From: Escherichia coli
GTDB lineage: Bacteria > Pseudomonadota > Gammaproteobacteria > Enterobacterales > Enterobacteriaceae
DNA length: 3,982 nt
Strand: one strand, 5' to 3'
Assembly: GCF_003334255.1 (NCBI RefSeq)
Contig: NZ_QOWU01000112.1
The translations under genes were made by a program, and so were the position numbers. Each line of letters starts with the position of its first letter. Position 1 is the stretch's first letter. The notes under the pieces are model-generated. The model saw only the letters and a program-made list of their open reading frames with translations, was not told the origin of the DNA and did not search any database. Shown in pieces: positions 3,591-3,982 of the stretch.

Positions 3591-3654
3591 GAAATTTTCT
3601 TTAACTACTGCAATTACTCATACCACGAAATAAAAGACGATGAGGAAGAACAAA

Positions 3655-3765
3655 GTGGCTGATTTTTGTTCAGCTAAATATAACATCAGTTTTGAAGAGC
3701 GGGATGAACTATTAATGGACTATGGTGAGTTACGCGGTGGAAGTGCTGCTGATGTCGAATCCTAG
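3655..3765 (+). CDS. Small ORF, 36 aa from GTG 3655 (in-frame ATG at 3640 gives 41 aa); hypothetical
   Basis: GAGGAAG at 3642-3648 lies 6 nt before GTG 3655. Ends at TAG 3763-3765. The frame stays open past the TAG to TGA 3829-3831. Confidence 0.2.
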   Translation: MADFCSAKYNISFEERDELLMDYGELRGGSAADVES

Positions 3766-3827
3766 CGTGATGACTATGAAGCGGGAAAAACTCCGGTCGA
3801 AGCATATTGTGATGAGTGGGGCGATGA

Positions 3828-3938
3828 ATGAGCGAGATTAATTATCAGGAAGGGCATGAAACGGCGGGGCAAGCAAAACCAGTGGCATGGCGATATCGCT
3901 ACGTGAAAAAAGGCGTTACGGACTTTCAGGGGAAGTAG
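3828..3938 (+). CDS. Small ORF, 36 aa (MSEINYQEGHETAGQAKPVAWRYRYVKKGVTDFQGK); hypothetical
   Basis: ATG 3828 sits in an ATGA overlap with the TGA of the preceding frame; GGGG lies 7 nt upstream. Ends at TAG 3936-3938, and the same frame stays open to the window edge. Confidence 0.2.
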   Translation: MSEINYQEGHETAGQAKPVAWRYRYVKKGVTDFQGK

Positions 3939-3982
3939 TGGTCTGGTGACTGGAAATATGTACCGAAAAAAGAGGATTGTAA

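What the first reader, a model, noticed from the sequence alone, without database searches (positions are those of the whole stretch)
3634..3982. Two adjacent open frames each interrupted by an in-frame TAG, joined by an ATGA overlap
One frame is open from 3634 to 3831 except for a TAG at 3763-3765. A second frame is open from 3828 to the window edge except for a TAG at 3936-3938. The ATG of the second overlaps the TGA of the first (ATGA, 3828-3831). This could be chance in an AT-rich noncoding region, the remains of genes inactivated by amber mutations, or genes expressed only in an amber-suppressing background. An ATG at 3958 with GGTGA upstream may also start a gene that continues beyond the right edge.
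Basis: seen in the sequence. Interest (0 to 1): 0.35.

Follow-up and report, generated by a model that had tools for sequence, protein, structure and literature searches.

The report
Dead small genes in Qin prophage
The two interrupted frames are real but ordinary: they are small phage genes of unknown function in the defective Qin-type prophage of E. coli, each knocked out by a single-base change to a stop codon, and they sit in a run of four broken genes.

Summary

The window is the dicA/dicC immunity and early region of a Qin-type cryptic prophage of E. coli. Both frames are homologues of conserved small phage genes.
- Frame 1 belongs to PHROG 519. The gene proper is 3655-3831 and starts at a GTG, not at 3634 or 3640.
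- Frame 2 belongs to PHROG 660. It runs from 3828 past the window edge.

Intact homologues carry TGG (a nearly invariant Trp) at the first TAG. The nearest intact relative carries CAG (Gln) at the second.

The stops are not sequencing errors. The exact 41-mers around them occur in 498 and 915 of 5,426 complete E. coli genomes. The same 41-mers with the sense base occur in none.

Two upstream genes are also broken. The DUF7167 gene has AAA changed to TAA at 3588. The methyltransferase has AAA changed to TAA at 3215 plus one extra G. Past the window edge, frame 2 also has a deletion, a frameshift and two more stops.

Amber suppression therefore could not restore the cluster. RefSeq already marks two of these genes as pseudogenes with an internal stop. 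The ATG at 3958 lies out of frame inside frame 2 and is not a gene start.

Verdict: routine pseudogene decay, of low interest.

The parts
2861..3350 (+). Class I SAM-dependent (DNA) methyltransferase pseudogene. It has TAA at 3215-3217 and one extra G in the run at 3293-3295. The first 118 codons (2861-3217) are annotated as an intact protein in most RefSeq records.
   Evidence: The intact ~163-aa homologue in Stx2c phage EH0430 has AAA (Lys) at the TAA site and GG instead of GGG. PGAP flags the gene as 'frameshifted; internal stop' in strain NT1N31.
3480..3662 (+). DUF7167 / PHROG 1997 small gene (60 codons), a pseudogene with TAA at 3588-3590.
   Evidence: PGAP annotates it as 'DUF7167 family protein, internal stop'. 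Intact homologues have AAA at this site. The intact homologue matches phrog_1997 at 9e-31. The TAA 41-mer occurs in 482 complete E. coli genomes.
3655..3831 (+). First frame of the finding: a PHROG 519 small gene (58 codons, GTG start), a pseudogene with TAG at 3763-3765. It is not annotated as a pseudogene at this locus.
   Evidence: Intact 58-aa homologues (WP_000753060.1, P0122-P0150, P0135) have TGG at this site, and Trp is nearly invariant there. The TAG 41-mer occurs in 498 genomes and the TGG version in none. The 41-aa stub 3640-3765 equals WP_001315551.1.
3755..3783 (+). A 29-bp patch holding seven substitutions private to the window haplotype (3755, 3756, 3760, 3762, 3764, 3774, 3783). 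One of them, 3764, creates the TAG.
   Evidence: All five comparators share the alternative base at all seven sites. One of them is a contig on the same backbone with an intact gene. All 28 IMG/VR contigs that carry the patch have the TAG form.
3828..3982 (+). Second frame of the finding: the 5' part of a PHROG 660 gene, a pseudogene with TAG at 3936-3938. It continues about 270 bp past the right edge of the window, where further lesions lie.
   Evidence: PGAP annotates it as 'hypothetical protein; frameshifted; internal stop', at window-equivalent 3828-4249. The intact 119-aa homologue in prophage 689R5 has CAG at this site. Other homologues have P, L, M, S or R there. tblastn with the 171-aa homologue P0022 shows a deletion of residues 92-123, a frame change and two more stops. 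The TAG 41-mer occurs in 915 genomes and the CAG version in none.
3828..3831 (+). ATGA stop/start overlap between the two genes. The analogous GTGGCTGA overlap lies at 3655-3662.
   Evidence: Both overlaps are conserved in all intact homologous loci. That they mediate translational coupling is an inference from the arrangement and was not tested.

Best explanation
The two frames are pseudogenes of two small, conserved phage accessory genes of unknown function. They lie in the early rightward operon of a defective Qin-type lambdoid prophage of E. coli, downstream of dicC, a YdaT-like gene, a replication-like gene, a DUF977 gene and a methyltransferase gene.

Each frame was inactivated by a point nonsense mutation. 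The first is TGG>TAG (Trp37>stop) in the PHROG 519 gene. The second is most likely CAG>TAG (Gln37>stop) in the PHROG 660 gene.

They belong to a run of four consecutive broken genes: methyltransferase (TAA plus a +1 G), DUF7167 (TAA), PHROG 519 (TAG) and PHROG 660 (TAG, deletion, frameshift and more stops). The prophage also carries an IS insertion and is fixed at one chromosomal site.

Shown here: homology, the sense codons in relatives, the linkage and the frequency of the alleles. Inferred: the genes overlap start to stop and so are probably translationally coupled. Once the prophage was grounded, or an upstream member was truncated, selection on the downstream members would have lapsed and they decayed neutrally. 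At most, N-terminal stubs of about 36-41 aa can be made.
For: Locus identity:
- The window is 99.7% identical to the Qin region of ATCC 8739-like genomes, flanked by dicB, ydfABC, dicA, dicC ... ISNCY transposase pseudogene, ydfW, flxA, relBE, hokD.

Frame 1:
- The readthrough translation matches phage homologues at 1e-29 and phrog_519.
- 17 protein clusters aligned, with Trp nearly invariant at the stop position.
- DNA alignments show TGG in every intact copy.

Frame 2:
- It matches phrog_660 at 9e-29, and the search with its intact 119-aa homologue returned 1,008 proteins at E<=1e-5.
- The intact 119-aa copy in 689R5 has the same six-A run and CAG at the stop position.

Other lesions:
- TAA in DUF7167.
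- TAA plus an extra G in the methyltransferase.
- A deletion, a frameshift and extra stops in frame 2 past the window edge.

Not sequencing errors:
- The exact 41-mers occur in 498, 915 and 482 complete genomes, at most one or two places per genome and all chromosomal.
- All 28 IMG/VR contigs with the patch carry TAG, and every one that reaches the other two stop sites in register has those stops too: 25 of 26 for the TAA, 22 of 28 for the second TAG, the others being offset by indels.

Existing annotation:
- PGAP already labels two of the genes as pseudogenes with an internal stop.
Against: No expression or proteomic data were examined, so a residual function of the truncated peptides cannot be excluded. 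The 41-aa stub has a RefSeq protein accession in one genome.

The ancestral codon of the second TAG is not certain. Position 37 is variable (Q, P, L, M, S, R), and no copy with the identical 41-mer context and a sense codon was found.

The seven clustered private substitutions around the first TAG mean that this stop did not arise as a simple isolated point mutation on the sampled backgrounds. The origin of the patch is unresolved.

Neutral decay and selection for inactivation cannot be told apart with these data.
Confidence: 0.93

Rival explanations
1. The genes are functional and are expressed by amber suppression or programmed UAG readthrough, in a suppressor host or through a phage-borne suppressor tRNA.
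For: Both stops in the finding are TAG, and both frames continue in homology after the stop.
Against: The coupled upstream gene and the methyltransferase carry TAA, which an amber suppressor does not read. Frame 2 also has a 32-codon deletion, a frameshift and two more stops. No tRNA gene lies in the 10.6 kb around the site in two genomes, and no Rfam element is found in the window. The haplotype sits in hundreds of unrelated natural isolates. The first stop replaces a nearly invariant Trp. From general knowledge, the second TAG is followed by T, a strong termination context in E. coli.
Confidence: 0.02
2. The inactivation was selected rather than neutral. The small early genes are harmful to the host when the cryptic prophage is derepressed, so nonsense alleles in all of them were favoured and swept as one linked haplotype.
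For: Four adjacent genes each carry a nonsense codon. The three stop alleles checked are linked. The haplotype occurs in about 9% of complete genomes from varied hosts and named strains. The frame 2 TAG is also found in a second prophage lineage at another chromosomal site, for example CUVET20. Neighbouring Qin genes (dicB, ydfD, YdaT-like, relE, hokD) are annotated as toxic or growth-inhibiting.
Against: No toxicity data exist for PHROG 519, 660 or 1997. Intact copies are common in other prophages of the same species. Multiple lesions per gene, an IS insertion and deletions are the usual signature of neutral prophage decay, as reviewed in PMC6379469.
Confidence: 0.08
3. The truncated N-terminal peptides (about 36-41 aa) are themselves functional small proteins, so the stops define new, shorter genes.
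For: The stop alleles are fixed and 100% conserved across hundreds of genomes. One stub is annotated as protein WP_001315551.1.
Against: The stubs lack the most conserved C-terminal parts of each family: DYEAGKTP..DEWG in PHROG 519 and GDWKYVPTKEDCNDRP... in PHROG 660. The 41-aa stub gives no significant family match on its own. High conservation is equally expected from recent common descent of the haplotype.
Confidence: 0.03
4. The stops are sequencing or assembly errors, or the frames are chance ORFs in non-coding DNA.
For: None beyond the small size of the frames.
Against: The sequence is identical in 482-915 independently sequenced complete genomes and in 28 IMG/VR contigs. Homology to conserved families is strong.
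Confidence: 0.005

Closest known systems
Pseudogenes of the Qin (Kim) cryptic lambdoid prophage of E. coli, as annotated by NCBI PGAP
   Same: Same chromosomal element and gene order (dicB-ydfABC-dicA / dicC-YdaT-like-...-ydfW-flxA-relBE-hokD). The DUF7167 gene and the frame 2 gene are already flagged 'internal stop' and 'frameshifted; internal stop' in RefSeq records that are 100% identical over window 3400-3982.
   Different: The middle gene (3655-3831) is not annotated as a pseudogene at this locus. The methyltransferase stub is usually annotated as an intact 118-aa protein. As far as I know, K-12 MG1655 lacks this segment; I did not check this.
PHROG 519 small phage proteins (58 aa in enterobacterial prophages; homologues in Vi01-like, rV5-like and other virulent phages)
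   Same: The readthrough translation of 3655-3831 aligns over its full length at 81-97% identity to intact E. coli prophage copies. It is about 43% identical to proteins of Salmonella phage Vi01-type genomes.
   Different: The window copy has a stop at the nearly invariant Trp37, plus A34V and A36S. The function of the family is unknown, with no Pfam or NCBIfam match.
PHROG 660 proteins (119-, 148- and 171-aa forms; the conserved WRYRYV...GDWKYVPTKEDCNDRP...FYEQVKRENPP core is joined to various N- and C-terminal modules, some with Ead/Ea22 or DUF551 domains)
   Same: Residues 1-91 align at 82-88% identity to the intact 119-, 129- and 171-aa forms. The start codon and the six-A run are the same as in the intact 689R5 copy.
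   Different: The window lineage has a stop at codon 37. Outside the window it has lost residues 92-123, changed frame and gained two stops. Function is unknown and there is no Pfam match. The AlphaFold model was too poor to use.

Membership tests
Qin-type cryptic prophage of E. coli | dicA/dicC divergent immunity pair with the dicB-ydfD arm on one side and flxA-relBE-hokD on the other, at one chromosomal site | tested here: met
   The window ORFs at 220-627 (-) and 711-941 (+) lie at the positions of the genes annotated dicA and dicC. The flanks in L001 and L002 carry ydfD, dicB, ydfC/B/A, ydfW, flxA, ydfV, relBE, hokD and rem. The window is 99.7% identical to L001.
Pseudogene (nonsense-inactivated) | Intact homologues exist and have a sense codon at the position of the stop | tested here: met
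   TGG at 3763-3765 and CAG at 3936-3938 in intact copies. AAA at 3588 and at 3215.
Pseudogene (nonsense-inactivated) | The stop is real, not a sequencing artefact | tested here: met
   The exact 41-mers occur in 498, 915 and 482 complete genomes, and the sense-base versions of the two TAG 41-mers occur in none. All 28 IMG/VR contigs carry TAG.
Pseudogene (nonsense-inactivated) | No full-length product is made | not testable with these tools
   This needs ribosome profiling or proteomics. The indirect evidence is the extra lesions in the same and adjacent genes.
PHROG 519 (frame 1) | Significant full-length match to the family profile | tested here: met
   Window readthrough 6.1e-11; intact homologue 4.5e-23; residues 1-58 against profile positions 76-137 of 143.
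PHROG 660 (frame 2) | Significant match to the family profile | tested here: met
   Window-lineage readthrough 8.8e-29; intact homologue 2.9e-45.
Amber-suppressed or recoded gene | A suppressor tRNA or recoding element is linked, and no other lesions prevent expression | tested here: not met
   No tRNA gene in L001 or L002. No Rfam match in the window. TAA stops, a frameshift and a deletion lie in the same gene set.
Pfam DUF5419 (the label on a Morganella phage tblastn hit to frame 1) | Match to the Pfam model | tested here: not met
   The intact 58-aa homologue gives no Pfam-A match even at E<=10. The label comes only from another record's annotation.

The most novel reading that the evidence does not exclude
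The linked nonsense alleles in four consecutive early genes of the Qin-type prophage were selected rather than neutral. On this reading, host domestication silenced a toxic or costly early module. The 29-bp patch of seven private substitutions that created the first TAG would record a single templated multi-nucleotide event, such as a short conversion tract, rather than independent point mutations.
Probability: 0.08. Interest if true: 0.3.

Novelty: already known. Interest (0 to 1): 0.07.

Why it matters
It matters little. The result documents ordinary gene decay in a grounded prophage and corrects small annotation gaps. The PHROG 519 pseudogene at 3655-3831 is unannotated at this locus. The 118-aa methyltransferase and the 41-aa WP_001315551.1 are truncation products that RefSeq annotates as proteins. 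The result also shows that in-frame TAGs in prophage DNA need not mean suppression or recoding. The linked set of stop alleles could serve as a lineage marker for this Qin haplotype.

Tried and rejected
- Function by domain search: the intact homologues of both frames gave no match in Pfam-A. NCBIfam gave no match for all three small genes. PHROGs gave only families of unknown function.
- Structure: an AlphaFold2 model of the intact 119-aa homologue, built from a 22-sequence alignment, had mean pLDDT 46.9 and pTM 0.30. That is too poor for a fold search, so none was run.
- Suppressor tRNA and known RNA elements: none found.
- ORFs in other frames and on the other strand across 3686-3982, including the one from ATG 3958: no PHROG match at E<=1.
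- Search for a sense-codon version of each stop in the identical sequence context: none in 5,426 E. coli genomes and none in IMG/VR.
- Search for a nearby template for the mutated patch: no second copy within 3 mismatches in the 10.6-kb locus. The only related sequence is an imperfect 20-nt direct repeat 42 nt downstream. It matches three of the five changes in the core of the patch and does not explain the rest.
- Literature: no paper mentions DUF7167. The vB_Eco...R 'phages' that carry related copies appear in a paper on phages located in the genomes of clinical E. coli isolates. I read only its title and the start of its abstract, so I do not treat those copies as proof of a viable phage.
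- The promoter and terminator scan of 3200-3982 found nothing above shuffle expectation.

Full report
**1. The observation**

The coordinates are exact. Frame 1 (3634-3831) translates to KTMRKNKVADFCSAKYNISFEERDELLMDYGELRGGSAADVES*RDDYEAGKTPVEAYCDEWGDE*, with its only internal stop at 3763-3765. Frame 2 (3828-3982) translates to MSEINYQEGHETAGQAKPVAWRYRYVKKGVTDFQGK*WSGDWKYVPKKEDC, with its only stop at 3936-3938. The ATGA overlap at 3828-3831 is present.

**2. Where the window comes from**

The ORF list shows the 135-aa repressor at 220-627 (-) and the divergent 76-aa ORF at 711-941 (+). Megablast of 3400-3982 against 5,426 complete E. coli genomes finds matches in 2,528 of them. Of the matching records, 485 are at 99% identity or better.

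The annotated context in two 100%-identical records is, in order: exonuclease, ydfD, dicB, ydfC/B/A, dicA | dicC, YdaT-like, a hypothetical replication-like gene, DUF977, SAM methyltransferase, DUF7167 pseudogene ('internal stop'), hypothetical pseudogene ('frameshifted; internal stop'), ISNCY transposase pseudogene, ydfW, flxA, ydfV, relBE, hokD, rem. This is the Qin-type cryptic lambdoid prophage.

The window is 99.7% identical to that locus, differing by one mismatch and one 9-bp gap. A review of 'grounded' prophages describes Qin as present in about half of E. coli and Shigella genomes, highly variable in size, and carrying multiple mutations in its integrase (PMC6379469).

PGAP's two pseudogenes correspond to window 3480-3662 and to 3828-4249. 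Frame 2 of the finding is therefore already annotated as a pseudogene. Frame 1 lies in the unannotated gap between the two.

**3. What the frames are**

About 92%-identical copies in other E. coli prophages carry three intact, overlapping small genes at this position:
- a 60-aa DUF7167 protein (WP_001224662.1);
- a 58-aa hypothetical protein (WP_000753060.1);
- a third gene.

*Frame 1.* DNA alignment shows that the first TAG is TGG in every intact copy. The gene proper is 3655-3831. It starts with ATG in one lineage. It starts with GTG in the window lineage and in three metagenomic contigs where the GTG-start gene is intact (P0135). It overlaps the DUF7167 stop by 8 nt.

Across 17 protein clusters the Trp at the stop position is nearly invariant. 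The family is PHROG 519, of unknown function. tblastn finds homologues in 166 phage genomes, including Vi01-like Salmonella phages. There is no Pfam or NCBIfam match.

*Frame 2.* The intact counterpart is a 119-aa protein in prophage vB_EcoS-689R5. It has the same ATG and the same six-A run, with CAG (Gln) where the window has TAG. Other homologues have P, L, M, S or R at that position. CAG>TAG is therefore the most likely change, but it is not the only possible one-step origin.

The family is PHROG 660, of unknown function. A search with the intact 119-aa homologue returned 1,008 proteins at E<=1e-5. They come as 119-, 148- and 171-aa forms that share a conserved core (WRYRYV...GDWKYVPTKEDCNDRP..YEIQALF...FYEQVKRENPP), and some are fused to Ead/Ea22 or DUF551 modules.

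The eight-A variant in 640R1 and CUVET20 is itself a frameshift, and those copies also carry the TAG.

Past the window edge, tblastn with the 171-aa homologue shows three further lesions in the window lineage: loss of residues 92-123, a change of frame, and two more stops.

**4. The neighbours are broken too**

DUF7167 has TAA at 3588-3590 where intact copies have AAA.

The methyltransferase 'gene' 2861-3217 is the first 118 codons of a ~163-aa enzyme. In the intact Stx2c-phage homologue, the TAA at 3215 is AAA, and the GGG at 3293-3295 is GG. PGAP flags this gene as 'frameshifted; internal stop' in one genome.

So four consecutive genes each carry a nonsense codon. Two of those are ochre.

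**5. The stops are real, fixed and linked**

I used 41-mers centred on each stop, so that every 28-nt megablast seed has to include the variant base.

| 41-mer | Complete E. coli genomes with a match |
|---|---|
| TAG at 3764 | 498 (one place each, all chromosomal) |
| Same context with TGG | 0 |
| TAG at 3936 | 915 |
| Same context with CAG | 0 |
| TAA at 3588 | 482 |

A scan of IMG/VR for the 24-mer around the first stop, with R at the variable base, found 28 contigs. All of them carry the A (TAG) form. Where the contig reached the site, all but one also showed the upstream TAA at the expected offset. Most showed the downstream TAG in register, and the rest showed it offset by one or two bases.

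**6. An oddity: a cluster of private changes**

Compared with five relatives, the window has seven private differences within 29 bp: 3755, 3756, 3760, 3762, 3764, 3774 and 3783. The TAG-creating change at 3764 is one of them. One of the five relatives is a contig on the same backbone with only two other differences over about 500 bp.

This looks like a single multi-nucleotide event, or a short conversion tract from an unsampled donor. An imperfect 20-nt direct repeat 42 nt downstream (3796-3815) matches three of the five core changes but not the others. No other template lies within the locus. I leave this unexplained.

**7. Mechanism**

Shown here: homology, sense codons in relatives, linkage of several lesions, and fixation in a chromosomal, IS-disrupted prophage.

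Inferred: the three small genes overlap start to stop (GTGGCTGA at 3655-3662, ATGA at 3828-3831), which is the usual arrangement for translational coupling. Selection would lapse once the prophage was grounded or once an upstream member was truncated. Further lesions would then accumulate. Only N-terminal stubs of 36-41 aa can be made.

Amber suppression cannot rescue the set, for four reasons:
- TAA stops, a frameshift and a deletion are also present.
- No tRNA gene lies in the locus.
- No Rfam element is found in the window.
- The first stop replaces an invariant Trp.

**8. Other readings tested**

ORFs in other frames and on the other strand across the region, including the one from ATG 3958, match no PHROG family. 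ATG 3958 lies out of frame within the W-K-Y-V-P coding stretch of frame 2. The promoter and terminator scan found nothing above expectation. The AlphaFold model of the intact frame 2 homologue was unusable, with pLDDT 46.9.

**9. Verdict**

'Chance' is refuted, 'amber-suppressing background' is not supported, and 'new start at 3958' is not supported.

Nothing here departs from ordinary pseudogene decay in a cryptic prophage, and RefSeq already annotates most of it. Novelty: already known. Interest: low.

Noticed in passing
window 2861-3350: The 118-aa 'class I SAM-dependent methyltransferase' (WP_001310834.1), annotated as intact in most RefSeq records, is a truncation product. The TAA at 3215-3217 is AAA in an intact ~163-aa Stx2c-phage homologue. 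An extra G at 3293-3295 shifts the frame before the conserved C-terminus GK.DKTHWIIFMKEA.
   Followed up: yes
window 3755-3783: Seven substitutions within 29 bp, including the one that makes the TAG, are private to this haplotype against all five relatives compared. No sense-codon version of the patch was found in E. coli genomes or IMG/VR. It may be a single multi-nucleotide or conversion event. An imperfect direct repeat at 3796-3815 matches only part of it.
   Followed up: partly
window 944-961: There is a 9-bp tandem duplication (CAGGCTCGTGAGGCTCGTGAGGCT, encoding ..AREAREA..) in the YdaT-like gene relative to ATCC 8739-type genomes. The product is 176 aa instead of 173 aa and stays in frame.
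   Followed up: partly
window 3456-3473: A G+C-rich hairpin with a GAAA loop (GCCGCCC GAAA GGGCGGT) lies six bases before the DUF7167 start codon. The part of it covered by the alignments is conserved in the related loci. Its centroid energy is -15.5 kcal/mol, no T-run follows it, and there is no Rfam match. Its role is unknown; it might stabilise the mRNA or occlude the ribosome-binding site.
   Followed up: partly
L003 2924-3192 and L004 2924-3181 (equivalent to window 3828 onward): A second prophage lineage at a different chromosomal site carries the same TAG in the PHROG 660 gene, plus an 8-A run instead of 6-A that shifts the frame. The 640R1 record annotates the shifted reading as an 85-aa 'hypothetical protein', which is an artefact. 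The TAG allele is thus shared across prophage lineages (915 genomes), which implies recombination between prophages.
   Followed up: partly
L001 (NZ_CP026085.1, labelled 'DH5alpha'): This record is 4.83 Mb and carries the long Qin segment that, as far as I know, K-12 lacks. From the Qin locus fetched here it resembles ATCC 8739 or W-type strains and may be mislabelled.
   Followed up: no
L012, L013, L014 (metagenomic contigs) against window 3470-3982: The three small genes are mosaic at a scale of 100-200 bp among prophages. L013 switches from CUVET20-type to window-type to 689R5-type within 400 bp. L012 has the window backbone with its TAA and second TAG, but an intact middle gene.
   Followed up: partly
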